Source: Tubiluchus corallicola | Taxonomy: Eukaryota; Animalia; Priapulida | DNA length: 64,000 bases | Direction of reading: 5' to 3' | Assembly (NCBI GenBank): GCA_030141605.1 | Contig: JAQGDQ010000066.1 | Location: forward strand, 124,001-188,000 | Shown: positions 1,348 to 63,811 of the stretch, in pieces | Numbering within the stretch: position 1 is the first letter of the stretch | Layout of the letters: the number at the start of each line of letters is the position of its first letter | Program-made: the position numbers and the translations under genes | The notes under the pieces: generated by a model | The model's database searches: none | The model's input: only the letters and a program-made list of their open reading frames with translations | What the model was told of the DNA's origin: nothing

Positions 1348-1349
<2 letters not shown>

Positions 1350-1439
<90 letters not shown>

Positions 1440-1466
1440 CATTATTATTATTATTATTATTATTAT
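1350..1466. repeat. (TTA)n microsatellite
   Basis: Nearly pure TTA run with one interruption; it explains the poly-Tyr ORF 1257..1511. Confidence 0.97.
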
Positions 1467-1757
1467 AGCGCATTGTCTATAATTTGCTTGAGATGTTCCG
1501 AAGTTTCATGAGAAAAACCGAACAAAGTGTTCTGGACGGGAAATGCAACTTTGAGGCTCGATTTCATTAGGAAGGAAGCGATGAAATTTAATAAAATTAA
1601 TGTCAAATTTTAAGTTACAGTTAACTCTTTTAATTAAAGAAGATTTGTTTTTATTTTAAATTTATCTTTAATGAATGATGAGTTGGTATATTGGCAAAAG
1701 CAATTTCGTAAATATTAAGAAAAAGTGTCTAGTGATCGTTGTTGTTGTGTGTGACAG

Positions 1758-4700
1758 GTGCAGACGTAATGAGAAGGAATGGCTCGTCTGATTCGAAGTT
1801 TCGCTATCCTTCATATGTGCAGGATATCATGGGAGACGTGTTTTCACTTGGTTTTGGTCCATTTCGGTAAGTTTATTTTCTGCATAACACTTGTTTTGTT
1901 CTTTTGTAAAGCTTAACATAGTCTTTTGAGAGTGAAAATAAATGCACATGAAAAACTATTTTAAAATACTTTCTCGAAGGGATGCATAACCCCTTTACTT
2001 TTCAACTCTGTTGGAAAAACAATGTTTGTGCTGTGGTTGAAATAGTTGTTAAATTGCACTAATAAGATCGTTTTAAAGAAAAATCTAAATAGAATATTTT
2101 TGCTTTCGATTTACATTGATTACATAAATCTTTGATCTGGCCTATAGATGTTCCTCAGAATCAAAATTTTGCACTTGAGTAGCTTCAGTTTTCTGTCTGA
2201 TGCGTGAAAGTTTTTTGTCTGATGCTTGAAAGTTTTTTGTCTGATGCTTGAAAGTTTTTTGTCTGATGCTTGAAAGTTTTTTGTCTGATGCGTGAAAGTT
2301 TTTTGTCTGATGCTTGAAAGTTTTTTGTCTGATGCGTGAAAGTTTTTTGTCTGATGCGTGAAAGTTTTTTGTCTGATGCGTGAAAGTTTTTTGTCTGATG
2401 CGTGAAAGTTTTTTGTCTGATGCGTGAAAGTTTTTTGTCTGATGCTTGAAAGTTTTTTGTCTGATGCGTGAAAGTTTTTTGTCTGATGCGTTGCATTTAA
2501 ACTGCTCCCTTCAAAAACTACCTATGGAGGGTCAAACATCAGAATACTTAAAAAGACCATTTCATTTGTGTCAAATGAGATAAGATAAGATCTTTTGCAA
2601 ATCAAAGACTTCTATTACATGTAGTTATATCTACCTTTACATTTATGCTACTTATATTATATAAATATTCCTATGTTAGTACAAGTATTCTGCCTTGAGA
2701 TGTTTATTTTAGTTATAAGTGATGGTTTTCTGAACTCAGAATTACGTGTACTGAACAAATGGTTCTACCCTGCATTTATTTTTGATTGTAATGGTTGACT
2801 CATTTCTCGCTCTTTAGTCAAATATACATTGTTCAATTAATTTTTGTAGACCATGTGTGACCTAATCAACATGTGTGTGCGTGTTAAAACAAGAAATCAT
2901 ACACAACTCCCTCCACTGAACTATGATATATAAGAGTTAAATTAATGAATTATTGGGTCCTAGTCTCATCACAACAATACAGGTCTGTGCAAGGTGTTTC
3001 CTAAGTCACTCGCTTTTCAATTTACTTTGCTACTAATCGACTAACAATATTCATCTTGCTAAACTCTTACTGAGTAGTTAAGAATTTTTTGAGTATTCAT
3101 TTGAAGTTTTGTGCTATTTGCTTCTGTTGTCATGCTGATTTAGAGCAGTGCAAAATCACATTGGTTGCTCACTTGCTAGATCATAAACCAACCAATGTCT
3201 TTTCGGTACATTAAGAGCTTTGTGTATGCCACCACGATTAGCAACGCCCCACACTATAAAAAATGTTGTCCATGGTCAATTGACCAAAGAATTCATGAAA
3301 AGATGGCTTGGCTTGTTTCAAAAAAAGGCGAGCATCGCTTTCAGGTCTACTAGTGACTTTCCAGAATGAAACCGATTTTGGTGCCACCAAGAATCTCCTG
3401 AATCACAAACTCATCACTCCTCTTATATTTGCTATTATAGCAAACTTTAAAAACAATGAGGGACTTATGAAACAGCCCGTGTAATACATTAAGTCATAAG
3501 GTATTAATGTAAAATTTGTTGTAAATACGGCTTTTTTAATTTGAGAAAACTATGGATTAACGTTGCATTAATAAATAGAGACTTATTGTACAGTGTAACA
3601 GGTTCACATCAGAATATTTACAGCCCATACTCTTAATAGTGTTAATAATTTAATAATGTTAATATAAAAAACAATATTTAATAACAGCATTTCAGCTCTT
3701 GAAGACAAGAATCCGTTTTTTGTAGAATATGGGCTGTCCGTGTCTGACATATTTGCCACTGCTACTCTAAACCTGAATTTTCATTAAATAGCCGTATAAT
3801 AAAATCACTGGTATAATTAGGTTCATAAAAATTTTCCACGTTCAGTAGGTAATATAAGTGGGTGTTAGACTAGTCTAACAATGATTGTAGGTCATAGTCT
3901 GGGCAGTGTTTTCTAGGTTTCTTGTACAACATGCATTTTAGAGATAGCCGCCCTTGTAGCGTGTTTTTCTCACTGGAACTAGTGTTTTTCGTGAACCCGA
4001 GGAAATTGCATCAATTCTGCGTCATTTTTTTTCCATGACTGCAACGTTACTTTAAATTTCAACTAAACTTAACAGCTTCACATTGTCAAATCCATTAGTT
4101 GTCTTAAATAATAATGCATTCCTATTATGCATGTTTGTATTATTTTCCATCTGTTGGGAAGATTTTTTTTGATAAATATACATTAAAAGTGGCTTAGCTT
4201 TTGTCAATACGTAATTTTTATTTTTGAGCACAAACGGTTTTGTTCTACTTTTTTGGGCATTCAGTACCTTTAAGCTTATTTGACCTTATCAGAGTTGAAA
4301 TTACAGTATCTGTACTTTGAATTTTATGGAGTCAGTAATTAGTAACTAGTCTGACGGCCTTCACAATAGAGTAATTATGTTTGTGTTCAGCCTCTGCCTT
4401 GTAATTTTATATGTTACAAGTGGCTATTAATTGAAGCTTTAGAGTATGCACAAGAAAGAATGTTACTATTGTGTGCCAGTCAGTCTTTCGATAAAATAGC
4501 ATACTAGCGAATTTTTTACCACAATTTTATTATTTTAGTTTTCCTTGCACTAGTTTTTACATAAACTTTGACTGAGTGTAATAGTGTAGTTAGGATTATG
4601 TACTAATTTTTCTGTTGTTTATGATTCTCAAAAACTCATTTCTCGAGAACATAAATTTCCAACTCTGTTTCCCCTTTCATACACAGATTAGAAAACTTGT

Positions 4701-7700
4701 CCAAGGCAGGTCTTTGAAAACATGACCTTGCCACTGCTGTAAGCTCGTGATAGTTATTCGTAAAGGTAGCTTCAACCATTTATTATACCCAGTGTCACAG
4801 GAATTGCTTGCTAGTAAGATGACTAATTGATTTACCTTTGCTTAGTTTACAAACTTTACCTTCACTGTATCTGACAGTTACATGGCTCTGTGAGTTAAAA
4901 AGCTAGAAGTACTGCGACTGTTTTTGTCTCAACATTCATGTTTATACCTGTAGATCTCAATGTGTGTAGACAGTTTACAAAAGCACTTCACTTTTCTGAT
5001 TTTTATCCATAATTTTTATCTGATGTAATTTGCCCATCAATGTAATAAGATTATCCAGTTCCTGCTAAAGTTAAATTCCATTTCGATACCAGAATAAATG
5101 TACTTTTGCTAACAAAGCAACCCGTTGCGCTAACAAAGCATAGGCATATTTAATAATGCATTTGATTATAGTGGCCAGCATTGGCCTGGTCACGTTCAAG
5201 GTAGTCTGTAAAAATCTACTAAAGGCATCAGCTAAAAAGTTTCCATCTTCTATAGCAAACGGATAAATATCAGGACCGTTTTGCCTCAACAAAACTTTAA
5301 TACTTCCATCTGGAAAATGCATCAATAGCTACTGCATATATAAACCATATTTTTCAAAAATTACTTGAGGTGCATCCTTGTACTCATAATTTTCACAATT
5401 GTGGTAAAAATGAATTTAAATGATGCATTTTTGTTATTGCCTTAGATCTTTCAATTAAAAAACCCGATCATTGTTCCTTAAACGTTATTAAAAATCGAGA
5501 AATCAAAATTACAGATACCATTGTCGCAAAGTTCTGAATAGTCTTGTGTCACTTTTTCAAGCATGACCAGAATAGTCTTGATACTTTTAATGTAGCTACT
5601 TGCTATATAAGCTTCTTCCAGTCTGTTCCATACAAATTCAAGCTTATGAAAGACACAGTATAGGTTATAATTCTGTTGTTTTAATTTCATACTATCTTAT
5701 CTTCGAACATAATGAGGTTTTGATTCCTGCATTATTATAATTATATTAATTTAATCTGTCATATCAAAATACACAGTGGGGCTTAGGTTAACAAGTGATT
5801 TTTCATGGTTATTCAATGTATAAATTACGAAGTTGCATATATTTGTTTTACAGAATGTCTGCTTAACTCTGAATTACATTTTAATGTTTACATTTTGCAA
5901 AACCTTCAAAATGAATATTTGAATTTTAATGGTTTGTATAGTGAACAGGGAAAGCAGCTGGTAGTCTGTAATATTTATGTCATTTCATCACATATAGTTA
6001 ACTTAATGGCAACGTGGCACCACCCCTATATACAAGATTGTCAAGGATAAGTGAGGTGTTGCCTGCGGAAGTACTTGTCGTTTTAAAAACATTTCATTTT
6101 ACATGTGAAATGCTTTATGAATTCTCTCAAGGTTATCTGAAATTAGATTCGACAAGTGAAAAAATGAAACAGCAACTTGACACTGTAGTTCTATATTTTT
6201 CCAGCGGTGGGACATTCCACGAAAGATTGATTGTTCCACTTTGTCGTGATATTTTATTTTTATTACGTTGGCAGTGGCTGATATTTAGAGGTGTGCCGTG
6301 TTTCGCATTTATATTCCGATCGCCCATAATCGTGACCTACCCTCTGGCTAAATCTGATTCTTCCTGATATAAAAACTGTATAAACTGATTTAATGGTTCT
6401 TGGCATCAATTACTACCTTCCGTTTTAAACAAAACTTATTTTAATCAGGTCTTAAGTTCCATTATACCACTTGACACGCACTTTGGAAACTTAAAATGCT
6501 ATTAATGTCAGAAAGTGTTTGTAAATAAGTAAATTAATTAAATAGAACTTGAAGAATTCTGCAAGTTTTGGACAGCTGTTTGTCTACGTGAGTTATGATT
6601 ATATAAATCAATATAAATTTTGCAACTAAAAGCAGCCTATACCTTTTGTTTAGCACCTTCTTGAATACTGGTAATTTAGCTGCATTGCTGCAAAAGTTTT
6701 TTAAATCTGTGATCAAAAAACTCCTAATAACACAATTTAATGTCTAATTGGTTAAAAGATAATCTGCAAGAATCTTTGCAGGCAGTTAACCACATGGAAT
6801 AATTCTTGCAATTTTGCAAATGCTACATGGGGATGCAGCAATGTGATGTTTCAGTTATATTTGCTATTGTCGCCCAGGGAATGCAGGCATGATACATTAA
6901 CTGCTTCATTTGGAGAATTCAGCATCTTCCTCAGTGCATTAGTGACCTGCATCCAATTAATCATCTTTAAAGTGTTGGACATTTAATCAATCGCTGTTGC
7001 ATATCTGTAGAGTTTGTGTGGCTGTGTAGTGAGTTCTGTTCTGGTGCAAGAATGTACCTTACTATTCACACTTTATAACATTGCTTGCATTTTTTGTATC
7101 GTGAAGTGAGAATATGTGCAAATTTTCTTGAAACTTGAGTTTATAGTGCTTTGGCATTAAATGCTAGCACAGTTGTAGTAATGGACCATTTTGATTTTAT
7201 TTAGGTAAATTTACTTCATTATGTGGGTATTCATGATTAGCAGTGGATTTATAAAGGTCTTATTGTATTGTAATTGCTAACTTATTTCATTGTTCTGGAT
7301 GTTGTTTCGTCGTCTTTCAAAAATTTAGTGACTACTTTTAATGCGATGTACTTAACTGGTGCAAGTCTTTTGCAAAAATCTTCACATTCTTATATAAGAA
7401 TAAAAAAGTATTGTGACATTACCTATGTTTTTGTATAAACAAATTTCAGTCATAGCTTAAAGTTTCCTTGCAGTTTTGAAATTTAAGCATTTAGTATTAA
7501 TATTTATCACCTACCACTATTGAGATATATACAGTTTACTTTTCGACAAGCATTAATAAATTTCTTTATTGAAAATCCGTCTCTTGTGTTTATTTATTGG
7601 ATTATCATTCTTAACACAATCTGCTATTTGCTTAAAGATTATCAACGTAACTGTTGATAGAATTAAAAGGTATCATCAATAGTGTGTTCATGTATCAAGG

Positions 7701-10700
7701 AGATTTAAGTGTTTAAATTTGACACTAAGCTTGTGAATTTTGGCTTCAGATCTTGTTATTGTTTGAACTTGTGTGGGTTGAAGTAACTTTATCCTTGTTA
7801 TCAGCTATTTGGCAATTTTTTGCAACTATACGTGAAACACTTCACAAAATATGACGTGTGATTCTCTCTAATTGGATTTAATTGCTTAAAATAGTTCTGT
7901 GGTGGTTTTGGTTTGCGAACACTTTAAAAATATCTAAATGGGCTTTACTGGGTGTTTATAAGTTTTACAGTCTCTACTGGCAATAAACAAAATGAAGCTC
8001 ACAGCAGCTGATCTGCTTTTTGACATGCTGCAGAAGTTAGGTAAGGCTATTTAAAACCGCATCATAAACGTTTACAGTTTGTGAGTTGAGTCTGCCTTGC
8101 CAGGCTCATTATTGTGTTTCTGTTTTCAGTTTGTGAATTTTTTTCGTAAACAGTGTTTCTTCTTTTAACTTCGGGACCTCCAAGTTTTCAGTTTATTTTG
8201 CGCAGTGTGCAAATCAAAGCGTCGTATGCAGAGTATTTTCACCAACTGTGTCCTTTTTCATTGTTTATGTAATTGTCACTTGTCATTCTTAATATTTGCT
8301 AGTGAAATAGTAAGAAACGGTTAAAAGTTTTTTGGTGCATAATCTCTTCCTGGTGTTATGCTGTCCCTTCATTACTTTTCGGTTTGACTGTTGAAGACTG
8401 TGATCAGCTTGTCTGCAAGAATCAACTTTTCCTACAAGATCAACAGAGTTTTGTTGTCAGATAAATGGGTTCACTTGTTTTCTTTGCCGCCTGTTTTCTG
8501 AGATAATAATCTTACACATGTTTGTTCGTCCATCCATGAGATGTTAAGTTACCATTGGGCGGCGTAGAGTTTTCCAAAGCGGTCATTTTTGACCCAATGA
8601 CCGGCATGTTTGTCCTGAGGCGCTGCTTGCACGCAAACTGGTTGTAGGAAAACGCGAATTTACAACTGGTTAGTTGAATGTTCTTTCTTATCTAAGAAGT
8701 GTCGAAAGCATTCACTGTAGTGAGCACAGTAATAGCAGTCAGTGAGAAGGCTTGCCTAGTATTAACTGCTATCATCAGGTTGATAACTGATAAAAAGATT
8801 AACGTGTTTTTGTTTGCTTTAGGATTTATTGTTATTAAGCAGTAATTAGTGTCATTTCTTATTTGACGTAGGTAAGCTTTTGAGCGTTAATGGTTTTGTT
8901 TGCAGACTTGCTGCTTTCCATGCCTGTTTTGCTTGTTTTTATTGTTGTTTTTCTTTGTTTGCTTGTTTTATTAGTTTTTAAAGGTTACCTTTAGTTCTGC
9001 TTTTTTAAGCTTATTTGTAGTTGTTTTCTTTTGTTTGCTCTTTTGTTAGTTTTTAAAAATCTGTTTTATTTCTGCTTTTTTAAGTTGTTCTCAAGCTTTG
9101 GTCATTCGAATGTTGTTTGAAATTAAAGTTTTATATAGCTATTGCTACTGTTTTCATTTTTATGAATGATAAGCTCAGATAAATTAAAATGATTGCATAT
9201 AATAAATAATATGCCAAGTGTTAATGATAGAAATGATCACGTGTGTGTTAATATGTGGGAAATAATTGTGACACATCGTACGAAAAGCTATTAAATTGTT
9301 TTTATAATGATTTAATGTGAAATTGAACATTTTTGTCCAATAAAATGGCTCTAAAAGATAACTATTATTATTTTGATAAGGAGATTTTATAACAACCCGT
9401 TAATCAAAAGTTAAAACCACTTGCACTTGTAAATTAAGTATGCATGCATGTAAAATTTTCTAGCACACTTTTGAAAAACATTGCAAATTGTTTTGGTTTG
9501 TAAATTTTTTGAAAATGGGTTTCTGACTAGGTCATAAGAATCAGCTTATCCATGCCCATAAGCATTTCTTTTTGTTTTGCTCAGCATTTGAGCCATTTTT
9601 TGCCATGCAGTTGTTACAATTCTGCTTACAGATCAAGTACTGTGTTGTATTGTTCCCCAAGCCTGTCGTGCTTGGAGGTGGAATCAGTTGCCATGTACAA
9701 AGAAAAACCTTGTACTTTTAGCACTCATGCAAGTAAATACTGCGCATAGAATAAATTCTAACTAGTATATGATCAAAGACTGAATCTGCTATTCATAAAG
9801 GGAATTTGGTGAGCATGTATTACATTGAAATCCTGTTTTTCAAATTGCCCCTGTTTGGCATTCCACCTGCATAGATGTTTTAGTCCAGGTGCATGCAGGC
9901 AGAACCGGTAACTCATGTGCACACCTTGAGGCATTATTCTACTTATCGGCTTTCACTTTTTAGCTGTCTGTGTTCTTACCCAGTCAACGATCCTTGCTTC
10001 TTGACACGCTGAAATGCACCCAATTTGCTGGTTATGCTTGGCGAGCTGTTAATTATTTGTTAAAGTGTTATAATTTAGAGCAAGTAGCTAAAATTGCGTG
10101 GTTTGGGATATATGTTTGAGTACTAGTTCAACTAAGCTCTAAAGTGTGTTTATTTTGCAGAGTAAAAAAGAAGCATCATGAAAACTGAACTATAACTTTT
10201 TTACTTGGTGCACAAATTGGCTGAAGCTTGTGTTAGTGCTGTGAACAAGTGTTCAAGATTTCCAGCAGTTTTTCCATAGAAATGCTTTTGACAAGATAGT
10301 GCAAGCATTTTGACAATACCATAACGATCAGAAGGGTGAGAAACGTTCTCTAAGTTTTCTGCAAAGTGGAACCTGCCAAAATGGCAATGGTGTCTCTTCT
10401 CAGGTGTGTAGCTTTTGTGAGTTTCTTGATGTATGCTTGTGCAGCGAGGAGTACCAACAACAATATGGAATGTGATCCGATGATCGATAAGGATGGAAAA
10501 GAAATTGGTATCGGTTGTCATGTAAATAGCACCAATATGGTAGGTGTGCTGAATCAAATTGGACATTCCAACACCATCATCTCTGTGTATTCATGTCAGC
10601 AGCATAGTGAGTTTGATAGTGGCTTTGCTAGATCTGTCATGCACGTTTTAGAAGAATTGGTCATCAATAACTGTCCAGTGGCTCATCTGCCACGTGTTTA

Positions 10701-13700
10701 TTACACTGGCACGCCGCACATGCGGTGCGGACTTGAAACACATGCTCCCCTCCGCATCCTCAATCTACGTAGCAACAATATCACGTCTATTGAGCCGTAT
10801 GCTTTCTATGGTTTGTCAAAACTTGAACAGTTATTTCTTGGATATAACAACATTATGAAGTTGGAGCAGCATACATTTAATGGACTGAAATCACTAAAGC
10901 TTTTAGAACTAGCGTTCAACAAGATCAGCAGCATTGATGCAGGAACTCTACCAGTCATCTTCCCTCCACATCACCTGCAGGAAATCATAAATAGTGAAAA
11001 GTCAATGGAAGCTTTCTGCTATTTTCCACACTTGGAAGAAGTGTATCTCAACTACAATTTATTAACTTTGTTTTCTAATGCTACTTTTATCGTTAATGAC
11101 TTTATGGCTCACATTGCCCTTCCCGGATCAGCTATAAAAGATCCACAGCTTTTATTAAACAGATTAAGGCCAAAATTGTCACTGTTGAATCTGCAAGGCA
11201 ATAATCTCACCGAAATTGAAGATTATGTGTTTAGTGGACTTCCAAATCTTGCTAAACTTCTACTTGGTGAAAATCTTCTGCAATCAATTAAAAATAATAG
11301 TTTTGCCGGATTGAAAAATTTGAAGATAATGAATTTGTATAAAAACATGATTGAGACAATAGAGTCGGGAACATTCAGTGAGATGTTCCAGTCTGAGGAA
11401 AACGACGTGTCTCGATTTCTGCTAAACCTTGCCGAAAATAAGATCAAGAAAATTAAACCAGGCACTTTTCAGAATTTGAATTATCTGAGTTACCTGCAGC
11501 TTGACGGGAACGAAATAGCTTCATTAGCAAGTGATGAGTTCTCAGGAACAGATTCACTTGTTCAGCTTGACTTAGGAAACAATAAATTGCAGTATATACC
11601 CCCTGAATTGTTCACTGATATGGACACATTAACGCTCGTTAGTTTAAGTGGTAATCGACTTTCATACCTACCTGCTAATTTATTTGCCGATTCTAAAAAC
11701 ATCTGGACTCTAAAGCTGAATAATAACTCTTTAACCGAGAAAGGTTTGCTGGCAGGTTTGCTGGATATCCCACAGTTAAAATCTGTCGACTTAAGTACAA
11801 ATAAGTTAACCCGCATTCCACAAGGTTTGTTTCACAACATTCCAAGCTTACAGTCAGTTTCCTTGGTGAACAATTCTATTTCGGTTATCTATCCAGATGA
11901 TTTTAAAAATTTGCCTGAACTCGAGACTGTTAATGCTAGTTGGAATATCATTACAGCAGTCTATAGAAATTCGTTTGTTGGAACGCCAAGCTTAACATCT
12001 TTAGACTTGGAAGGAAACTCTATGCTAAGTTTTGAAGAGTTCTCGAAAAATATTTCGACTATTTTAAAACGAAATAATCGAGAAGCGTCATCCGTTCTGG
12101 AAATTGTGCTTCACGGTAGTGTGATGGAGTGTGGTTGCTATGACTACGAGAGCATGAAATATCTTCAAGAAGCTGTCAACGATGGCAAACTTATTTTAAT
12201 TGGCGGGCATTGTTACTATAAGCATGATACCACATTCTGGGAACTCAATGTAGTGAATCTTGAATCCATGATGGAACATTGTCCGCAGAATTTTGCGTCT
12301 GTTTCCTATGTTGAAGAGCAATCTTCATGGAAATGGCTGATGTATATTGGCATTGGTTTTGGACTAGCTATCCTGCTTATCGTTCTTATTCTGCTGAAGT
12401 GTTCCACTAGCATTCAACTCGCCTGTTTTAGTCGATACGGTGTGAGAATTTTACCAAAATATCACAATTCAAAGGGAAAGACTTACGATGCTTACATCTG
12501 TTACAGCAGATGTAATGAGCATTGGGTGTTGACCAGCTTAGTTCCAACGCTTGAAAATCGTAAGCATCCGTATCGGCTTTGCGTTCATCATCGGGATTTT
12601 CCAGGCACGGATTACGTCAACGATTGCATCGTCAATGCCGTGAAACACAGCAAGGCAACAATTCTCGTTCTTTCCACAGACTTTATCAGTGGTGACTGGT
12701 GTCAAGTGGAATTCTCTGCTGTTCACAGAAATGCTCTTCGCGAGCATAGAAACGAGATTATTCCTGTTTCTCTTGAGTACATTAGCCAGCAGTACTTGAC
12801 TCCCGAACTGAAGCACATAATGCACAGAACGCGGCCAATATCAGTCGAAGATCCTCAGTTTTGGAACAAGCTTTATCTTGCTCTGCCAGACCCAGAAATA
12901 GACCAAAGCAGTCCAATGCTTAATAAGTATGACAAGAAAATTTATGTTTAATCTTGTTTAATATACGATTGTTTCAGTGTAATATACAACTGTTGCCTAG
13001 TTACTGATCTTAGCTAGCTGGAAAAAAATGATTTATTAAAGTTAAATACATGCAACATATGTCTTGTACAGTATGTAAACTGTGATCATTCAACACTTAA
13101 AGCACATTATTCACATTCTCAAGTTCATTTCTGAAATTGTGCATTTGTGTTTTAAAGGGGTTAGGGAAATGTCGTAGCATAATGTTCTGTTTAATAAGTA
13201 TTTGTGATCTTGAAGCATTGCACACAATATTTATTATGTACCTACATTGTATTGCAATTTAATAGAGAATTTGAAATACAACTAAAACCTTTTTATTATA
13301 GCCATTAAATTTATCTCGTCCACCTTATGGCATTTAGCTGTGATAGATTTACGTCGGTTTTTTACCTTTGTTTGTGGCATTGTATCTTGCTACATGCAAG
13401 GGTCTTCAGGACAATGACACAGTCAGCATTTATTTCACATTTTACAAAGTAATCGCTAAGATTCAAACTGGTTTGTGTATCAGTACAAAACTGCGTGTTC
13501 AGCTTAACTTCTGTTGTTTAAATAAATGGGAATGTCATATTTATGTAATCATAAAAGACTTGGGGGGGTCTTTGACCTTCAAGACCAACGACATCGACGT
13601 TGCTAGCATCTTGTAAGGCTGTGTAATTTGTGTAGTTTATATGGTTTAACATTAATTTCTAATCTTGCTGCCTCCAGGTTCAAGGTCCTGGTGAATTATT

Positions 13701-16700
13701 TACACGTCATTGATACTAGCTTAAAGATATTGCTTAGCTAGCGTAACTCAGCAACTTGAACTGGTGCAGTTGTTTTGTAATAATAGATACTGTCGTGAAT
13801 TATAATGTTTCCGCTAATAATCTATTCTTCGTAAATGTGGAAATTTTTGATTTTTGTGATGTAGAATCAGTTTCCAAAAAGTGCTGCTTAATTTTTTAAT
13901 TTAACTTTTACAGTATATTGAACTTCTCCATTTGTCTTCTGGTCAAAATAAATAACTGTCATCTTTAAATTAATATATTTGTATTGTTTGTCACACTTGT
14001 ACTGCGATGTTGTTTGTTGTAAATATGTGTAAAAATGTGATTTCTGATGCGTAATTGCATGATTTAAAATAAAAAAGCGAAAATTGTTTGAGTAATAAGT
14101 AATTGTATCTGTTAATGTTGCAAACAATAAAATTAGTAAAAGTAAACTAATTGAATCTTGAACATTTTTAATCTAGATTTTTGTGGCTGGATCTATCGTA
14201 ACGTATTATCAGCCTTTGGTTCTTTCACATGAAGGGAGTTGTGTGTAGAAATTAATTTCATACTTTCTGCAAACACGCATTAACCGTGGTTTTCTATCCA
14301 TTGTATATTCATTGCAGCAGTGTATGAACATTAGTTTTTGCATTTATGTTACCATATCAGATTCGATAAGCAAACCAATAAATCACTAAATCAATATAAA
14401 TAGAAGGGATGATAATCAATGTCACCCATTGAGTCGAGAGTTTAACCCATCTGGCCAATAAAAAATAGCTAAAAATTATTCTTGCTTAGAAGTAAGTAAC
14501 AAGTTGTAAAGTCATTCACTGTTTAATTAATTACATAATTAAATTAGCTAACTCAACTATAGATTTTTAAAACAGCATTAAGCCAGAACTTTAAAAATCT
14601 GTTGTTCCACATTCAATTCACACCGTGTCAACTGATTATGGCAAGTCAAGTGTTGAGTGAAGTTTAAGCAGTTTAACTTTACACCTGTTGTTGCACTGAA
14701 TTTTTACTTTAGTCTGAACTTCTATTGTACAATGGGGTTTAAAATTGCTGGTTCTGGTACAATATGATTTTAACATGCAGAGGAAGCTTTAAAATCACTA
14801 TGGGTTTAATAGACTGGTTACTAATAAGCCATATTGTTTGTTTTGGTTTTCCTATAGATCAAGTCATACCCACAATGTGACTTGAGTATAGTGCAACACA
14901 AGCCTTTATTATATGTAATCATTAAATATTTTATTAGGTACTAGGTAGAAGCAGATTTTCTTCAGATGTTTCATGATTGATTGGCCTGCTTGCTGCTTAT
15001 GATAGGTTCTTTGAATGTGAAATCTATCTAATCTTGCTATAAAAACTGTTAGTTGTATTTTTGCTCTTTAGCTGACTTTAGATATTGGATGGGAATTTCC
15101 AATTTGTTATCATGTTGTTATGATCTCAGTACTAGTGCTTTAAAAAGTCACTTTTAGACATCGGTAATTGGTTATCACATTATTCAAACCTGTTAATCCT
15201 GTGTTTGTATGCCTGAAGGGTCTGCTTTGTGTACTTACAACTTGGTTAGCACTTTCACTGTTTGATGCTAGGCAAAATTTATCTAACAGATTTGCCTCGT
15301 GTGTTTAATAAGTTTTCAGGATAGGATTTTCTTTAAGACATTGTTTCATCATGTTAGAATTTTACGTTTGAAATGTTTATTTTATTTTGAATAAATTTTA
15401 AGTTGCCAACGGTTATTTAGTTTTCTATTCGAATGCAAATTTTCTTAATGTGTAGTTGTGTATTCAGCTTTTTTGCCCACTTATACCGAATGATAAAATT
15501 GTGCTGACAGTAAGAATTGTGAGCTCAGATGACATTAAAGATTTTAATCAAATTAACAGTATACTATATACTTTTTTTATTTACCATAAGCGCAATAAAA
15601 TTTGTTTAACAAAGCATGAGTACACACTTTGGGACAAAAAGATTTAAATCTGCAATGAAGGTGTCATTGTTTTCTATAATACTATTTAATATTTGTTCTA
15701 TTAATTTTTGTGTGGTGCAAGTTGTGCAGCCTGCCCCTTTAAATTGAAGCTATGAATAGATTAATGAAATATTTTGTAGCACATAATGGCAAAATTATTA
15801 GAGAAAATCTGATTAAAATAATCTTTTGTTTAACATTTTGTAGTTGGGTATGCACATCAGCTAATCCGGCAGATTTAGAACAGACAGATAAAATTGCTAC
15901 TGCTGTTTTAGAAGAAATTATCAAACAAGATGGTAATCTTTATTTTTCCATTGCAACTGATGCACCTAGATTTTAATATACTGAGATTTATTTCTGTTAA
16001 ATTACCCTTTTTCTCCCCTCTGTAAATTGAATTTCTCTCTGTCTGTCTCTCCCCCCATCTTTTCTCACTGCCCTGACTTCATACACATCATATTAATTTG
16101 CTGAAGCTTAGAAGTTCTCGACATTTTGTGACGTTTATGTTCCCAAGTTTTAGAACTTCACTGATTTTACTCTAAACATATACGACAAGTCTCTTAAAAT
16201 GTCTGTCATTTTACTGCTTTCTTACTGAGAAGCTTTTTTTGGAAAAAAACAGTATAAATATCCTCTTAGAAATGGTATAAAACTGTATATATATATATAT
16301 ATATATAAAACTGGTATATTCACACTATCGGTAGCCTTGACTTATTTATTCACAAGCAGTTTTTGTCAAATTTTCAGTTTACAGATTTTTTTTTATTACT
16401 CTGTTTTTATTATTCTATTTTTATTACTAAATTGATTACTAAATTTATGCAGGTGAACATATAGGAATTCTTAATTTAGGAAATGTAAGATATTCTCTAG
16501 AAGGATTTATATTAACGCTTAAGAACAGAAAAAGTTGATTGGGATTGAGTTGGTACTGTGGCCCGTATTGAAAATACTTGTTAATTTTAAAATCGACGAC
16601 TGATGGATCGATGACCGATGGAATGTGACTGTGTTGAATTTAACGCTGTGGCAGCTACAGTATCATTCCTGCTCTCTGTTGGTATGATGCTGTAAAGTGA

Positions 16701-19700
16701 ATAAATTAAGGGTTATAAGGAAAAGGCTAGTCACTAGCAAAAACATGTGTATTGAAATAAGTGATAAAATACATTTATTTAATGTATATAAGAAAAAGCA
16801 GTGGTCCTAGGGTAGATCCTTGTGGAATACCCTATGTAGATAAGAAAAAGCAGTGGTCCTAAGGTGGACCCATGTGATACGCCATAGTTTATGTTCTGCA
16901 TATGAAAGTACATGTAAAGACATACCGTACTCCATTTAAACCTGTTATTTTGCATATTTTTCAAATTGAAGGGGTGCAACAAAATTAAAACCAGTGGTGC
17001 CACTTGTGTCATTTTCAGTAGCTTCTGCTACATATTAATAAAAATAAATGTACTTCAATACATTTTTGACCAATCTTGTTATCTCTGCTTGTGCAAGTTA
17101 TTTGTGATATCGTTGTAGTACCTGGTGCAGTGCGGCAGCAGTATACTGATAACTTAGAATGGATTCGGCAAGCTGGAGACCACAAGTTAGTTGTCGGCTC
17201 ACAGGCAAGAATTCTTTACTCTGATCAGCAAGGTCGAATTGCTGTTGCTGTTGCATTCAATAAGGCAGTTGCCACTGGTCAATTAAAGGTTGGTATGTAC
17301 TGTGTTAGTAGTTTTTCATATTTAAATCAGTTATAATATGTTTTTCTGAGAGTCATTTGTTTTCCTGGAAACACATTTCCTCGTGCGATCCTTTTGAAGA
17401 CTGTGCTGAATAAAATTTTAGCGCTAGTTAAAGCATTCATCTCAAATTGCAGAATATTATAAGTGCTTTATGGGATTTTAGGACAACTTGTAATAAGCTT
17501 GGCTGAGTTTGAAGCAGTTTTCTTATAGTTTGAAAAAAGGAATGCCTAAATATTCTCTAAAGCTACCGGTATTATTTGTCTAGGCATTAATCACTTTGAA
17601 ATCAACACCTTACAATATAAAAGGCTATACCTGTTTCTTAACACATGTTCTTTGAAATAATTTTTAAGAATTGACAATCATTGTCTCTTAAATTTCAATT
17701 ATTAGGACATGCATTATGCAAGAAAAGACTGGGAGTACCGTATTTTCCCATGTATAAGAGACCCTTGTGTATAAGAGACCCCTTCAATTTTTAGGCAAAA
17801 ATTCTGGAAAAAAGTTTTCTGGTAATGAATAACTTCGGACATTTTTAGAGGGTAGAGTACAACTTTTTTCAACTCAGTGCGGTACTGAAAACAAAATAAA
17901 ACCAGTTAATGTGTTGTAGAAAAAGAGTACTGGTATATATTAAAGTGCGTACCTGCAAACCTGTAACAGGAAAAGAGAAAACGAGGAGATAATGCCTGTG
18001 TCACGATGCTTGTATTGCTTACAACCGCTTCATAGTCGAACGCGACACGCCTTGCTTAGGCTGACTCATCTCGTTGACCTCTGCCGACGTATCAATGACG
18101 TGTCACAATTTATGCATCTTATTGAAAAGACTTACTCCCATGTATAAGAGACCCCCTATTTTTAAAGTGAAAATTCTGAGCAAAAAAGGGTCTCTTATAC
18201 ACGGGAAAATACGGTATATATGACTTGATTCCTTTATATTATTGTTCCCGAATCCTGGTAGTTTATACCCATTGTTTACTAAAGAATTTTCAAGCGAAAC
18301 ACCAGCTTTAATGAATATTTTTAAATCTGCAGGCACCAGTTGTGATAAGTCGAGACCACCATGATGTCAGTGGTACTGACAGCCCATTTAGAGAAACCTC
18401 CAACATATATGATGGCTCATCTTACTGTGCAGGTGCAGCAACCTTTAACTCTTTCCTTTAAGTCTTTTAGAATTATACAGACTTTTAGAATGTAATTATT
18501 AAAGAGGCCCTGGTGATATTTTTGAACCCTTCTTGAAAAAGTTGTTTTGCAGCATGTTGCCAGCTAAATTTATGTTGTGGTTGTTTATATTATTACAAAT
18601 ATTAATTATGTTATTAACTAGAATTCAAGTAATTCGATTAGTATTGTATCCCTTGTATTATAAGCAAAATAGTGACTTCATTAGTGACTATTGATTTTTT
18701 ATGATCCATTTTATTTAGTATGTACCGTATGAAAGGTTAGCTGACCAGATATCAGTTTACTATCGTCTTTCTAGCTTGCTTACAGATATCACACGTTTCT
18801 GATTTTTGAAATATGGCGCTGCCGTGAATATCTTGTCTTTTTTAATTAATGGAGATATATATTGAAATTTAGTTTTCTTTTCTATGTGTACTAAACCTTT
18901 TTATTTTACCATTTTACCATAGATATGGCTGTACAAAATGTGATTGGAGATGCTTTTAGAGGTGCTACATGGGTTTCATTACACAACGGAGGAGGCGTTG
19001 GTTGGTAGGTTTTAAATTCCACTTTCTCTGCTAGTTGCTGCTCGTTTCTTTACGATGAGCAAACTTACAGTAAGTTTGAATTACATTAGCTTAGACTGTT
19101 TTAGTAGAGATAGCAGTGTGTAAACATTATTAGTATTATATGCCAATATATGGTGGCATCTGTTGTCAAAAAAAGTGAAGTATTATAAGTTGGTGCTGCA
19201 TTAATTCACAATCACTTCACATTGCAGTATATTTGTAGTCTATTTTGCAGTTGCAACTGCTCAACTTTGTCCTTGATTCCATTAATTGTGGTGAGTGGGG
19301 GTAAAATGATTAAGGATTAGTAGATTTATAAGACTGCCTGCATGTGCAGCTCACCTATCTGGTGAGTAAAAATTTACTTCAGAAAGTAAACAAGCAAAAC
19401 CCCTAACAAATTATGATTTAGTAATGGAGTAAAATAACTTGAAAAAAGTTGGCCAACCAACTTTTTACCATGTGATCCCGGGACACTTTTTTGTTCATAA
19501 CCACTGATCTGTGACACAGTGTTCCGATGGCCAGTATAATTTTTTTCTGATACATGTACCAAGACTTTATTTACTACACATGCCTATTAAGTACTAACAG
19601 TCTTACAGATAGTATAATTATACAATTCTGCTCGAATAATTATCATTGCAGGAATTACACTCTAATCTGCTTTTGCATTAAAACTTGGTAATCTCTTCCA

Positions 19701-20759
19701 GTAATTGACTTGGGAATAATTCAGCTATGAAGTAAATTTAATTAAATGACTGGAAATTTTTTGCACCGTTTCATTTTCACATTTTTGTGATGTATGATTA
19801 AGTTCCAAAACAACCTAGGGCCTTTGACTGAATGACACTAATAATGAAAACCAGGAAACCAAATACATTGAAAAGGTGGTATGATAGTGCTATTAATGTG
19901 CTAGCTGCTGATGATGGGAAAGATGCCTTTTACACTTTGAATCATTTGAGCAAGCAAATAATAGGGGAAAATATCTGACTTTCTCAAAAATTGAACCATT
20001 TTTCACCTATTAGGACAAATAAATTTCAAATCTTACTATTCCTTTAAGGAAGTAAAAAAATAGTTGTAATTTTTAACCTTATTTGATTATTGCTTAGGGG
20101 TGAAGCGATTAACGGAGGGTTTGGCTTAGTCTTGGATGGCACAACTGAAGCAGAAGAAAGAGCCCGCAGTATGTTAGCCTGGGATGTTTCCAATGGGGTA
20201 TATCTCATTATACTCTAAATGACGTGTTCTTATTCTGTGTTTTAACTGCCTAATAATTTTTACTAGAGTTTAAATGTAAAAGTGTTTCAGGTCTCTAGTA
20301 TTCAATAGCTTCCTGCCTGGAAATGATTGTCATTGCTCAAAATTTGACCTGAAAAAAGTCATTTCGTAGCATGTAAATGTCAGGGTTTGAATCTGAAGGA
20401 TGTTAACCCGCCATACACCCATCCCTCCCTCATCAGACAAGAAGCCTATTTTCCTTGGCAGTTCTATTTAGCAATTCTTTAATCAATTTTTACTTGAAGA
20501 TCGTTGTTTTATGTGTCTGTTTAAGATTTACACAAATTTACTTATTATTCATAGACTGGTTAAGTCTTGCAAGCTGTATTATTGTACTTGATACTTGCAG
20601 GTGGTACGTCGCTGTTGGTCAGGTAACAGTAATGCTCATCTCACAGCAGAACGTATGATGAGACAAGACAACAGGTTGGTCATCACTCTGCCCAATCATG
20701 TGGAAAATGACACCGTGTTAACGAATGCATTTAAAAATTGCAATGCTCAACAAAAATGA
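1758..20759 (+). CDS. UROC1: Urocanate hydratase (urocanase), 3' portion; 5' exons lie upstream of the window
   Basis: Exons 1758-1866, 15844-15932, 17119-17288, 18333-18432, 18923-19004, 20098-20197, 20601-20759 (TGA), all GT-AG and phase-consistent. The spliced peptide contains FRYPSYVQDIMGDVFSLGFGPFRWVCTS, HKLVVGSQARILYSDQ, PVVISRDHHDVSGTDSPFRETSNIYDGS and RGATWVSLHNGGGVGWGEAINGGFGLVLDG, which are typical eukaryotic urocanase motifs. Confidence 0.96.
2194..2490. repeat. 22-bp minisatellite, about 13 copies of TGTCTGATGC(G/T)TGAAAGTTTTT
   Basis: Head-to-tail units with no spacers. The 22-aa periodicity of ORF 2185..2496 equals 3 x 22 nt. Confidence 0.95.
2990..3481. mobile_element. Degenerate Tc1/mariner-like MITE
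   Basis: Left CAAGGTGTTTCCTAAGTCACTC versus reverse complement of the right end CACGGGCTGTTTCATAAGTCCCTC. The right end is followed by TA. Confidence 0.45.
8925..9085. repeat. Degenerate T-rich tandem repeat
   Basis: Recurring TTGTTTTCTTTTGTTTGCT, TTAGTTTTTAAA and TTCTGCTTTTTTAAG blocks. Confidence 0.55.
10381..12951 (+). CDS. Toll-like receptor (signal peptide, LRR ectodomain, TM, TIR), single coding exon, ~856 aa from ATG 10381
   Basis: Hydrophobic N-terminus; many LxxLxLxxNxI/L repeats; degenerate LRR-CT (MECGC...C...C); TM WLMYIGIGFGLAILLIVLILL; TIR box1 YDAYICYS, box2 LCVHHRDFPG, S.DFISGDWC.VEF, and box3 FWNKL. A splice acceptor TTTTGCAG ends at 10160, upstream of the ATG. Confidence 0.96.
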   Translation: MAMVSLLRCVAFVSFLMYACAARSTNNNMECDPMIDKDGKEIGIGCHVNSTNMVGVLNQIGHSNTIISVYSCQQHSEFDSGFARSVMHVLEELVINNCPVAHLPRVYYTGTPHMRCGLETHAPLRILNLRSNNITSIEPYAFYGLSKLEQLFLGYNNIMKLEQHTFNGLKSLKLLELAFNKISSIDAGTLPVIFPPHHLQEIINSEKSMEAFCYFPHLEEVYLNYNLLTLFSNATFIVNDFMAHIALPGSAIKDPQLLLNRLRPKLSLLNLQGNNLTEIEDYVFSGLPNLAKLLLGENLLQSIKNNSFAGLKNLKIMNLYKNMIETIESGTFSEMFQSEENDVSRFLLNLAENKIKKIKPGTFQNLNYLSYLQLDGNEIASLASDEFSGTDSLVQLDLGNNKLQYIPPELFTDMDTLTLVSLSGNRLSYLPANLFADSKNIWTLKLNNNSLTEKGLLAGLLDIPQLKSVDLSTNKLTRIPQGLFHNIPSLQSVSLVNNSISVIYPDDFKNLPELETVNASWNIITAVYRNSFVGTPSLTSLDLEGNSMLSFEEFSKNISTILKRNNREASSVLEIVLHGSVMECGCYDYESMKYLQEAVNDGKLILIGGHCYYKHDTTFWELNVVNLESMMEHCPQNFASVSYVEEQSSWKWLMYIGIGFGLAILLIVLILLKCSTSIQLACFSRYGVRILPKYHNSKGKTYDAYICYSRCNEHWVLTSLVPTLENRKHPYRLCVHHRDFPGTDYVNDCIVNAVKHSKATILVLSTDFISGDWCQVEFSAVHRNALREHRNEIIPVSLEYISQQYLTPELKHIMHRTRPISVEDPQFWNKLYLALPDPEIDQSSPMLNKYDKKIYV
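15091..15100. promoter_or_regulatory. Consensus NF-kB site GGGAATTTCC downstream of the TLR
   Basis: Exact match to GGGRNWYYCC about 2.1 kb after the TLR stop codon; function unproven. Confidence 0.3.
16781..16890 (-). mobile_element. LINE (CR1/L2-type) reverse transcriptase remnant, tandemly duplicated
   Basis: Minus strand encodes YGVSHGSTLGPLLFLIYI followed, in another frame, by GIPQGSTLGPLLFLIYI; both match the GVPQGSxLGPLLFLIYIND RT motif. Confidence 0.8.
17738..18214. mobile_element. pogo/Tigger-like (Tc1/mariner) MITE, copy 1
   Basis: TIRs CCGTATTTTCCCATGTATAAGAGACCC and GGGTCTCTTATACACGGGAAAATACGG, TA on both sides, subterminal TGTATAAGAGACCC repeats. A second copy lies at 62454-62896. 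Confidence 0.9.
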
Positions 20760-21047
20760 ATTGTGCTGTCGTTTTTGATTTTGTCGCCATTCTAATTATT
20801 GTGTCTTAGTGGATGTTTGGAAAGTTAGGCTAATTCATAATCTCGAGGACAGGTATCTTTCTTTTAATGGTTTTCCAAGTAATTATGTAGTTTGTGGTTT
20901 ATTTTACTAATGCCTTTTTTGGAAGAATTTTTACACATAATTTTATCTTACTTTTTACAATATTTTTGTAGTATTACAGTAAAACATGATTTGTGATTCT
21001 TCTATAAAATATTGTGCTCAAGTGTACTAATAATTTCAGTATACATA

Positions 21048-22175
21048 TTTTGCCACTATAATAATAACTTGTTTTAGAAATGTTTTATAGCTTTGAAAAA
21101 GTATTTTCATATTAATGTATACTTTTTACATGATTTTATATAATGCAAAACAAAGGCGTTGTTAGATAGTAGAATATGTGAAAGTGCTTCATTCTTAAAC
21201 ATGAACTTGTATATTACCAGCATTATGCATAAAGATGTCACTTATTAAAAAGAAAATGAGCATAAATTGCTTGTGTTCCGAGATTTCTATTATAAGTCAT
21301 ATTTCAATATAAAACTAATACATTGCGAGTGTTACTACTTTCTACAAAACATTGACTTATAATTAATGTATCAAAAGTGTATTTAGCATGAGCTTTATTT
21401 TTATATTCTATGTGTGATTTAGATAAAGGTAGCAAAGAATATGCAGATATTAAACTGACTGGTTAGTAGTAACAATGCTGAAGTCTGCTATTTTTCAGCT
21501 TTCTTTGCTACTGTATTTCTTATTCGATTATCATGATGCTGAATTGCAGCTAATATTATTATACAATTTCAAGATTTCATCAGCACTTGCTGGCCTTTGT
21601 AAATGAGAACATTAATAAATAATTGTGCATATAATAATAAAAGCCAAATTTTTATTTTGCTTGTGAGTCTCAAAACTTGGGTGTTGATTTTTGACAGTTT
21701 GAAAGCATGCAATTTAATACATGAGCAAGTATAAATAGTTTGCCACTGTATTAATAATTTGTTTTACAAATACCTTTATAAGGCAAAATAGACCAAAATA
21801 CCTGAAAAGCATTTTGCACATAATTACTACTACTATATAGTTTTACGCCTTTTCTTATAATGCAAAACATAAGGTCTGGTAGATAGTAACCATATGTGAA
21901 AGTGTTTTATTCTTAAACGGTACAATATGGTGGCAACTTGTAAACATAAATAAGTAGCATTTTACCTGTAATCAGCAACAGTATATACAATAACATGTTA
22001 ACTTAACAAAAACAAAATATAAGAGTAACTTGCTTAACTAGCATTCCAAGATTACAAATGGTTGTTCTAGCATTTAAAATTTTGTATTCTAAAGCAAAAT
22101 AGCATATTTCTAATTTCTATAAACTTGACTTATAAATAACATACAAACAAAAGGCATCTATATAACATGAGCTTA
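21048..22175. repeat. Diverged direct duplication (~350-430 bp blocks, ~700 bp apart) between the convergent 3' ends of UROC1 and CFAP20DC
   Basis: TTTGCCACT..AATAA.TTGTTTTA.AAAT and TATAATGCAAAACA..AGG....TAGATAGTA..ATATGTGAAAGTG...ATTCTTAAAC occur at ~21048-21400 and again at ~21739-22175. Confidence 0.75.

Positions 22176-42615: not shown

Positions 42616-63811
<21,196 letters not shown>

What the first reader, a model, noticed from the sequence alone, without database searches (positions are those of the whole stretch)
1867..15843. Intact Toll-like receptor nested on the same strand inside a 14-kb intron of urocanase (UROC1)
Seen: the UROC1 codon CG|T of FGPFR-WVCTS is split by intron 1867-15843. 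The other UROC1 introns here are 0.4-1.2 kb. A complete TLR ORF with no coding introns (10381-12951) lies within this intron in the same orientation. Established: nested genes are more often antisense to their host, and urocanate, the enzyme's substrate, is immunomodulatory and is sensed or consumed by bacteria through the hut pathway. Inference: every UROC1 transcript must read through the TLR's splice acceptor and poly(A) site, so the two mRNAs may compete. TLR induction could lower urocanase and raise urocanate, a possible histidine-metabolism/innate-immunity coupling. The arrangement could equally be a neutral insertion.
Basis: partly seen in the sequence, partly recalled or inferred. Interest (0 to 1): 0.8.

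Follow-up and report, generated by a model that had tools for sequence, protein, structure and literature searches.

The report
Immune receptor nested in urocanase intron
In what is likely a priapulid worm, an intact Toll-like receptor gene sits in the same orientation inside a 14-kb intron of the histidine-breakdown gene urocanase, a real but common gene-within-a-gene layout in which the two genes likely work independently.

Summary
UROC1 is split at GFGPFR|WVC by a 13,977-nt GT-AG intron (1867-15843); its other five introns here are 403-1,186 nt. An 856-aa ORF (10381-12951, same strand) encodes signal peptide, LRRs, transmembrane helix and TIR. By eye it is the ortholog of Halicryptus spinulosus Hsp-TLRα1, so the animal is likely a priapulid. 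A run of a roughly 90%-alike relative holds a spliced UROC1 contig and contigs over the TLR reading frame and 3' flank; 37 of 40 listed TLR differences are synonymous. DNA contigs tie the TLR to the downstream UROC1 exon. No contig shows the 14-kb splice or a UROC1-TLR chimera, and the nesting could not be dated. The proposed histidine-immunity coupling has no support here. Same-strand nesting is common (about 29% of fly nested genes, 72.5% of them single-exon), and nested pairs tend to diverge in expression. The MAGI gene in this window has a 13.1-kb intron with no recognised gene. The scan noted TLRs nested in other hosts on other DNA, one same-strand. Verdict: new member of a known kind; low interest.

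The parts
1758..1866 (+). UROC1 exon A (…ADVMRR…GFGPFR); earlier exons lie upstream of the window
   Evidence: tblastn E 2e-13 to 4e-10 with 6 urocanases; AG at 1756-1757
1867..15843 (+). UROC1 host intron, 13,977 nt, GTAAGT…TTGTAG, phase 2
   Evidence: T-over-A skew in 8 of 8 kb bins 2001-10000 and 3 of 3 bins 13001-16000
2187..2491 (.). 22-nt tandem array, 13.9 copies; the place that listed DNA contigs do not bridge
8041..8877 (+). Two donor-like sites (GTAAGG at 8041, GTAAGC at 8872); candidates for the end of a TLR 5' non-coding exon, untested
   Evidence: pattern scan only
10140..10160 (+). Candidate TLR splice acceptor (ttattttgcAG at 10160); a better-scoring site lies at 9584; neither is shown by RNA
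   Evidence: crude score, rank 21 of 719
10381..12951 (+). Toll-like receptor ORF, 856 aa, no coding introns: signal peptide, 14 loose LRR motifs, one juxtamembrane cysteine cluster (C584, C586, C611, C634), TM about 652-674, TIR about 704-840
   Evidence: X6 contigs over 10497-12926
12952..14600 (+). Likely TLR 3' UTR with six AATAAA (13521, 13947, 14068, 14126, 14377, 14457); end not mapped
   Evidence: X6 contigs laid from 13361 to 14497; hexamers
15844..15932 (+). UROC1 exon B (WVCTS…)
   Evidence: Pfam Urocanase_C positions 12-35, E 5.8e-4, below cut-off alone; tblastn
17119..17288 (+). UROC1 exon C
   Evidence: Urocanase_C E 4e-14
18333..18432 (+). UROC1 exon D (RDHHD)
   Evidence: Urocanase_C E 2e-13; its last bases appear as the loose end of the spliced X6 contig
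18923..19004 (+). UROC1 exon E
   Evidence: Urocanase_C E 1.1e-8; X6 joint to exon F
20098..20197 (+). UROC1 exon F
   Evidence: Urocanase_C E 8.9e-9; X6 joint skipping 1,093 nt GT..AG
20601..20759 (+). UROC1 last coding exon to TGA
   Evidence: tblastn; translation

Best explanation
An intact, intron-free Toll-like receptor reading frame lies on the same strand inside a 14-kb urocanase intron, and it likely works as an independent gene with its own intronic promoter and poly(A) site while the urocanase transcript would splice over it as ordinary intron. Shown: the layout, the intact frame, purifying selection on the listed differences, and RNA-type contigs over both genes. Inferred: the TLR entered (or was engulfed by) an intron that already existed, by DNA or RNA-mediated relocation; it is tolerated because it brings no coding splice sites; a polymerase coming from the UROC1 promoter passes it as it passes the many other decoy acceptors and AATAAA hexamers of an AT-rich intron; any interference is incidental and is probably limited by expression in different cells or at different times. 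The protein is predicted to be a single-cysteine-cluster (V-type) TLR with a protostome Toll-type TIR; its ligand is unknown.
For: Layout and frames. Orthology by eye to Hsp-TLRα1, a complete V-type TLR from a Halicryptus transcriptome (PMC8609888 supplement file 3), and 52% identity over 829 columns to P0002: the gene is an old single-lineage TLR, not a fresh retrocopy. 37 of the 40 X6 differences shown are synonymous. X6 holds a spliced UROC1 contig (joint 19004 to 20098; loose end matching exon D) and separate contigs over the TLR frame and 3' flank. Fly: 71.27% of nested genes are opposite-strand, and 72.53% of same-strand ones are single-exon (PMC3814207 passages). Mammals: orientation broadly balanced, nested genes prefer the largest intron, most pairs show no expression relationship (bioRxiv 2023.05.02.539096 passages). 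Nested pairs diverge in expression (PMC5174743 abstract). In-window control: MAGI intron 43566-56692 is 13,127 nt with no Pfam match above cut-off among its scanned ORFs of 55 aa or more. Decoys: true acceptor ranks 17 of 719, candidate TLR acceptor 21 of 719; 19 AATAAA in the intron. Among the 120 urocanases, 4 unnamed ORFs start two residues before WVC and 1 leaves homology right after GFGPFR, a weak hint that other animals have an intron at this spot.
Against: No TLR start site, first exon or promoter was found: no TATA box in 7500-10381, no clear CpG peak, Inr-like hexamers at chance-like density. The 14-kb splice itself was not seen in RNA. X6 is contigs only, from one run, RNA by guess, about 90% alike to the window, so it gives no strand, level or tissue. 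Only 40 of 195 difference rows were shown, all from 10535-11307. Nested genes can truncate host transcripts in mammals (7 of 31 same-direction pairs had such ESTs; PMC3192792 section 6), so independence is not guaranteed. The nesting was not dated: if it is shared across priapulids, neutrality is less convincing.
Confidence: 0.72

Rival explanations
1. Regulatory coupling: firing of the TLR promoter, or use of the TLR acceptor and poly(A) site, would cut UROC1 transcripts short, lower urocanase and raise urocanate during an immune response.
For: Same strand; candidate acceptor at 10160 scores like the true UROC1 acceptor (3.94 against 3.97); six AATAAA in the TLR 3' flank. Joining exon A to 10161 in silico stops after 8 further codons, which would remove the whole C-terminal domain. 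Nested genes cause exonization and premature polyadenylation of hosts in mammals. κB-like 10-mers at 6209 and 15091 (no chance control run).
Against: No chimera among the X6 joints (3 listed; exon A not covered, so weak). Decoy acceptors and hexamers are plentiful. The listing of a search on urocanic acid, urocanase, innate immunity and invertebrates (20 of 22 papers, titles and abstract starts only) showed no invertebrate urocanate-TLR link; the immunomodulation seen there is UV and skin work in mammals. Nested pairs tend to be less co-expressed than neighbours.
Confidence: 0.1
2. The TLR has no promoter of its own and is cut out of the UROC1 primary transcript, as an alternative terminal exon behind UROC1 exons or by spliced-leader trans-splicing at its acceptor.
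For: No TLR promoter or first exon identified; acceptor-like site 220 nt before the ATG; in a re-analysis of human data 22 of 53 same-direction 'nested' genes were judged alternative exons of the host (PMC3192792 section 6).
Against: Cis-splicing from exon A puts a stop at 10185-10187 and leaves the TLR ATG about 190 nt further on behind a short upstream ORF at 10282, a poor template. The TLR has its own signal peptide and an ATG in good context (GCCAAAATGG). Donor-like sites at 8041 and 8872 could end a private first exon. A search for trans-splicing, spliced leader and priapulid listed 3 papers, none on priapulid trans-splicing by title or abstract start.
Confidence: 0.1
3. Assembly artefact: the TLR segment was wrongly joined into the UROC1 locus.
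For: No listed contig spans the intron; the 22-nt array at 2187-2491 and a 29-base gap at 13113-13141 are not bridged in the rows shown; X1 may be the source sample. No genome is held for a wider check.
Against: X1 contigs 8777-13112 (whole TLR) and 13142-16274 (TLR 3' flank through exon B) abut; summed depth is 152-208 in all 20 bins from 3392 to 16671; a second sample (X4) and a diverged one (X5) hold pieces both up- and downstream of the TLR. X6 contigs carry the TLR 3' flank up to 14497, inside the stretch that X1 joins to exon B. A break at the array would still leave the TLR between exon B and any upstream exon A, because 2882-15843 holds no urocanase exon. T-over-A skew is continuous along the intron.
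Confidence: 0.05

Closest known systems
Halicryptus spinulosus Hsp-TLRα1 (PMC8609888; passages, section 9, supplement file 3 part 10 and search hits in files 3 and 4 seen; sequence cells cut)
   Same: N-terminal 160 residues and the TIR region match by eye nearly motif for motif; V-type architecture with one LRRCT; clade α TIR, in line with the tree (window TLR with P0002 at 100/100 inside a 47-row protostome Toll/Tollo group at 98/98).
   Different: Not the same protein (many substitutions; identity not computed). The paper used a transcriptome and, in the parts read, says nothing on genomic position. None of the three Priapulus caudatus TLRs listed resembles it by eye.
Same-strand nested gene pairs of Drosophila (PMC3814207, passages)
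   Same: Single coding exon, same strand, wholly inside one host intron.
   Different: The fly set is enriched for young, fast-evolving, testis-biased genes; this TLR has orthologs in two other species and looks constrained. A 5' non-coding intron is possible here.
Host/nested pairs with host truncation in mammals: TXNDC12/KTI12 and others (PMC3192792, abstract and section 6); imprinted loci with premature host polyadenylation (cited in bioRxiv 2023.05.02.539096 passages; the names H13/Mcts2 and Herc3/Nap1l5 are recalled)
   Same: Same-direction nested gene in a host intron; the geometry that would allow interference.
   Different: There truncated host RNAs were observed; here none was seen and none could be properly sought.
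TLR genes nested in unrelated hosts, noted by this scan on other DNA (e1-7594141 DNAI7 same strand; e1-8148629 P450; e1-9713496 CAMTA; e1-7590151 MPR; e1-7506308 LSD1)
   Same: Intron-poor TLR inside a long intron of a host with no obvious immune role.
   Different: Different hosts and genomes; these are unchecked AI notes, not tested here.

Membership tests
Toll-like receptor | Signal peptide, LRR ectodomain, one transmembrane helix, cytoplasmic TIR in one frame | tested here: met
   Pfam LRR_8 and TIR above cut-off; hydropathy peaks at 1-22 and 650-684; TIR match to human TLR2 structures E 7.7e-19
Toll-like receptor | BB-loop proline in register with TLR2 (RDFxPG; role in adaptor binding recalled) | tested here: inconclusive
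   Ungapped alignment to TLR2 puts the Pro-Gly one residue earlier; P0002 has Ala-Gly in register. Signalling not testable.
V-type / single-cysteine-cluster TLR | One LRRCT next to the membrane, no second internal cysteine cluster | tested here: met
   Ectodomain cysteines at 31, 46, 72, 98, 116, 213, then 584, 586, 611, 634; the ortholog is classed V-type in PMC8609888
Ortholog of Hsp-TLRα1 (priapulid) | Mutual best similarity and shared clade | tested here: inconclusive
   Strong match by eye and the only hit for two motifs among 11 supplement files; the Halicryptus sequence itself was not aligned or put in the tree
Nested protein-coding gene pair | Inner coding sequence lies wholly within one intron of an intact host frame | tested here: met
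   host 5' exons lie outside the window and were not seen
Nested protein-coding gene pair | Inner gene is its own transcription unit, not an alternative host exon | tested here: inconclusive
   X6 contigs of TLR and UROC1 are separate, but no 5' end was seen
Nested protein-coding gene pair | Host mRNA splices across the inner gene | tested here: inconclusive
   Downstream UROC1 splices seen; the exon A to B joint was not covered
Host-truncating nested gene (transcriptional interference or intronic polyadenylation) | Host RNAs that end in or near the nested gene and rise with its activity | not testable with these tools
   No raw reads, long reads or challenge series among the 6 runs listed

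The most novel reading that the evidence does not exclude
The priapulid V-type TLR has sat in this urocanase intron since before the priapulid genera split, and its induction switches UROC1 transcripts from full-length to intron-terminated, so that one locus couples microbial sensing to histidine catabolism and urocanate levels.
Probability: 0.07. Interest if true: 0.65.

Novelty: new member of a known kind. Interest (0 to 1): 0.2.

Why it matters
As it stands it is a correct annotation detail: it places the likely ortholog of the only V-type TLR reported from priapulids inside UROC1, which gene predictors could fuse or miss, and it gives a marker for dating TLR movement in a little-studied ecdysozoan phylum. 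It would matter more only if RNA showed that the TLR truncates UROC1 on infection, which would be a direct genomic link between innate sensing and histidine catabolism.

Tried and rejected
No whole genome is held, so copy number of the TLR, the UROC1 5' exons and the genome-wide rate of nesting were not examined. The run search listed 6 runs and no RNA holder on record. In X6 no contig lay on 1670-10314 or 14970-18294, including UROC1 exons A, B and C; short exons at about 90% identity may fail to lay, so this is neither for nor against anything. Contig depths (TLR pieces 43-301, UROC1 piece 51) were not used to rank expression. The X6 loose end behind 14497 only loosely resembles 14503-14516; the pattern was fitted by eye, so its chance figure is no test. 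A second gene in the intron: 0 of 31 ORFs of 55 aa or more reached a Pfam cut-off; three frames of the tandem array gave sub-threshold PriA-like_WH hits, rejected as repeat noise. Rfam: 0 matches in the window. No long terminal or flanking direct repeat around the TLR, so no trace of the insertion mechanism. The first acceptor scoring had one training site off by one base; one search replaces it (ranks moved from 11 and 25 to 17 and 21 of 719). The score is a crude composition model from 7 sites. The tree used the 66 of 271 fetched proteins with a long TIR match and lacks the Halicryptus and Priapulus sequences; its root is the midpoint. Print searches for this pair: 'toll-like receptor + urocanate hydratase + intron' (1 paper), 'nested gene + same strand + toll-like receptor' (1), 'TLR + nested + within an intron + intronless' (1), 'UROC1 + nested + intron' (2); by title and abstract start none concerns it; none was opened. 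The library lacks most subscription papers, and the supplements of the bioRxiv preprint were not seen. No structure or complex was predicted, as neither bears on the question.
Full report
Observation. The window starts inside a urocanase (UROC1) gene on the + strand. Seven coding exons are present: 1758-1866, 15844-15932, 17119-17288, 18333-18432, 18923-19004, 20098-20197 and 20601-20759. Exons B to F match consecutive stretches of Pfam Urocanase_C, and tblastn with 6 of 120 fetched urocanases maps all seven in order, with exon A and exon B adjacent in the protein. Of the 120, 98 carry GFGPFR and 97 of these continue with WVC. The intron between A and B is 13,977 nt, GTAAGT to TTGTAG, phase 2; the other five are 403-1,186 nt. 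Inside it, 10381-12951 is one open frame of 856 codons on the same strand with LRR and TIR matches above cut-off, a signal-like N-terminus, a transmembrane stretch and one juxtamembrane cysteine cluster. None of the 31 other ORFs of 55 aa or more in the intron reached a Pfam cut-off.

What the receptor is. The only close relative in two large protein searches is P0002, unnamed, 52% identical over 829 columns. Motif searches in the 11 supplements of PMC8609888 hit Halicryptus spinulosus Hsp-TLRα1, whose N-terminus and TIR match the window protein nearly motif for motif by eye. The paper classes it as the one V-type TLR among four in Halicryptus and lists three P-type TLRs and no V-type for Priapulus caudatus. 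I did not determine the species. A TIR tree of 66 of 271 fetched proteins groups the window TLR with P0002 (100/100) inside a protostome Toll/Tollo group (98/98), apart from vertebrate and deuterostome TLRs, in line with the paper's clade α. The BB-loop Pro-Gly sits one residue earlier than in human TLR2; the meaning is unknown.

Is the assembly right? Six runs were listed, all as contigs. In X1, which may be the source sample though it differs from the window at 15 of 4,336 letters in the TLR contig, one contig holds the whole TLR (8777-13112) and the next runs from the TLR 3' flank through exon B (13142-16274). Depth is 152-208 in the 20 bins from 3392 to 16671. No listed contig spans the intron, and the tandem array at 2187-2491 is not bridged in the rows shown; 1,902 pieces were not shown. 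A second sample, X4, and a diverged one, X5, hold pieces on both sides of the TLR. Because no urocanase exon lies in 2882-15843, the TLR stays between exons A and B even if the array is mis-sized. T exceeds A in 8 of 8 and 3 of 3 kilobase bins of the intron, as in the + strand MAGI region (21 of 21), and unlike the - strand gene between them (2 of 17). Misassembly is unlikely.

Expression and constraint. X6 is RNA by guess only, about 90% alike to the window. Ten of its contigs lay on 1670-21600. One joins exon E to exon F across the 1,093-nt GT-AG intron and has a loose end that matches the end of exon D, so it is spliced UROC1. Others cover the TLR frame in six pieces from 10497 to 12926 and its 3' flank from 13361 to 14497. 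Of the 40 difference rows shown (155 more were not shown), all in the TLR frame, 37 are synonymous and 3 change a residue. This fits a transcribed, constrained gene with a 3' UTR of about 1.5 kb or more; contigs cannot give strand, level, start or end. Three joints were listed, none between UROC1 and the TLR, but exon A was not covered, so neither the 14-kb splice nor a chimera was tested.

How it likely works. The simplest mechanism is two transcription units. The TLR would start at an intronic promoter, possibly with a short non-coding exon (donor-like sites at 8041 and 8872, acceptor-like sites at 9584 and 10160), and end at one of six AATAAA sites in 13521-14457. A splice from exon A to 10161 would stop after 8 codons and leave the TLR ATG about 190 nt downstream, giving neither a full enzyme nor, probably, much receptor. 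No promoter was identified, so this step is inferred.

Comparison with what is known. In Drosophila 71.27% of nested genes are opposite-strand, and 72.53% of the same-strand ones are single-exon (PMC3814207, passages). In human and mouse the two orientations are broadly similar in number, nested genes prefer the largest intron, and most pairs show no expression relationship whatever the orientation (bioRxiv 2023.05.02.539096, passages). Nested pairs diverge in expression more than other pairs (PMC5174743, abstract). Against my reading: nested genes can force exonization, intron retention and cryptic polyadenylation of the host; 7 of 31 same-direction human pairs had such ESTs, and 22 of 53 proved to be alternative host exons (PMC3192792, abstract and section 6). 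A long intron is not special in this window: MAGI has one of 13,127 nt at 43566-56692 with no Pfam match above cut-off in its scanned ORFs. The scan's notes on other genomes list five TLR or Toll genes nested in unrelated hosts, one on the same strand (unchecked). Four searches of the paper library found no account of a TLR in UROC1 (listings only), and the listing showed no urocanate-TLR link in invertebrates. That urocanate is immunomodulatory rests here on a listed abstract about UV immune suppression in mice (PMC2187071) and on recall.

Verdict. Real, apparently unreported as a pair, and of a well-known kind. Independent nested gene 0.72; regulated coupling 0.10; TLR made from the UROC1 transcript 0.10; misassembly 0.05. 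The age of the nesting is the main open point and could not be tested. Interest 0.2.

Noticed in passing
window 42967-63860, + strand: MAGI-type gene (PDZ, guanylate kinase, WW, PDZ domains; family name recalled from the domain order) with a 13,127-nt intron at 43566-56692 and no recognised nested gene.
   Followed up: partly
window 23249-37671, - strand: Gene with a CFA20 domain (34940-35137, E 1.1e-4) and an OCRE-like end (23249-23425, E 3.7e-4), both below Pfam cut-off; likely CFAP20DC (name recalled). It converges on the UROC1 3' end.
   Followed up: partly
window 17736-18216: MITE-like element with 31-nt terminal inverted repeats (97%) and very high contig depth, over 100,000 in X1, in UROC1 intron C-D.
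   Followed up: no
window 28075-28713, + strand: 212-aa stop-free frame that reads like the end of a LINE reverse transcriptase (recalled resemblance; no Pfam match), antisense inside the - strand gene.
   Followed up: no
window 1349-1466, 1541-1663 and 2187-2491: (TTA)39 microsatellite, a dispersed high-copy repeat, and a 22-nt tandem array flank UROC1 exon A.
   Followed up: no
window 10226-11568: At several places the window differs from X1 and from one or more other runs that agree with each other (10226, 10257, 10312, 10542, 10598, 10650, 10791, 11568); 10598 changes residue 73. The window may be a minor haplotype or carry consensus errors.
   Followed up: partly
P0001 residues 733-748 (window about 12577-12624): BB-loop Pro-Gly is shifted one residue against human TLR2, and P0002 has Ala-Gly in register; adaptor use of this priapulid TLR may be atypical.
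   Followed up: no
window 6209, 12593, 15091: κB-like 10-mers in the intron, one a perfect GGGAATTTCC at 15091 downstream of the TLR; no chance control was run.
   Followed up: no
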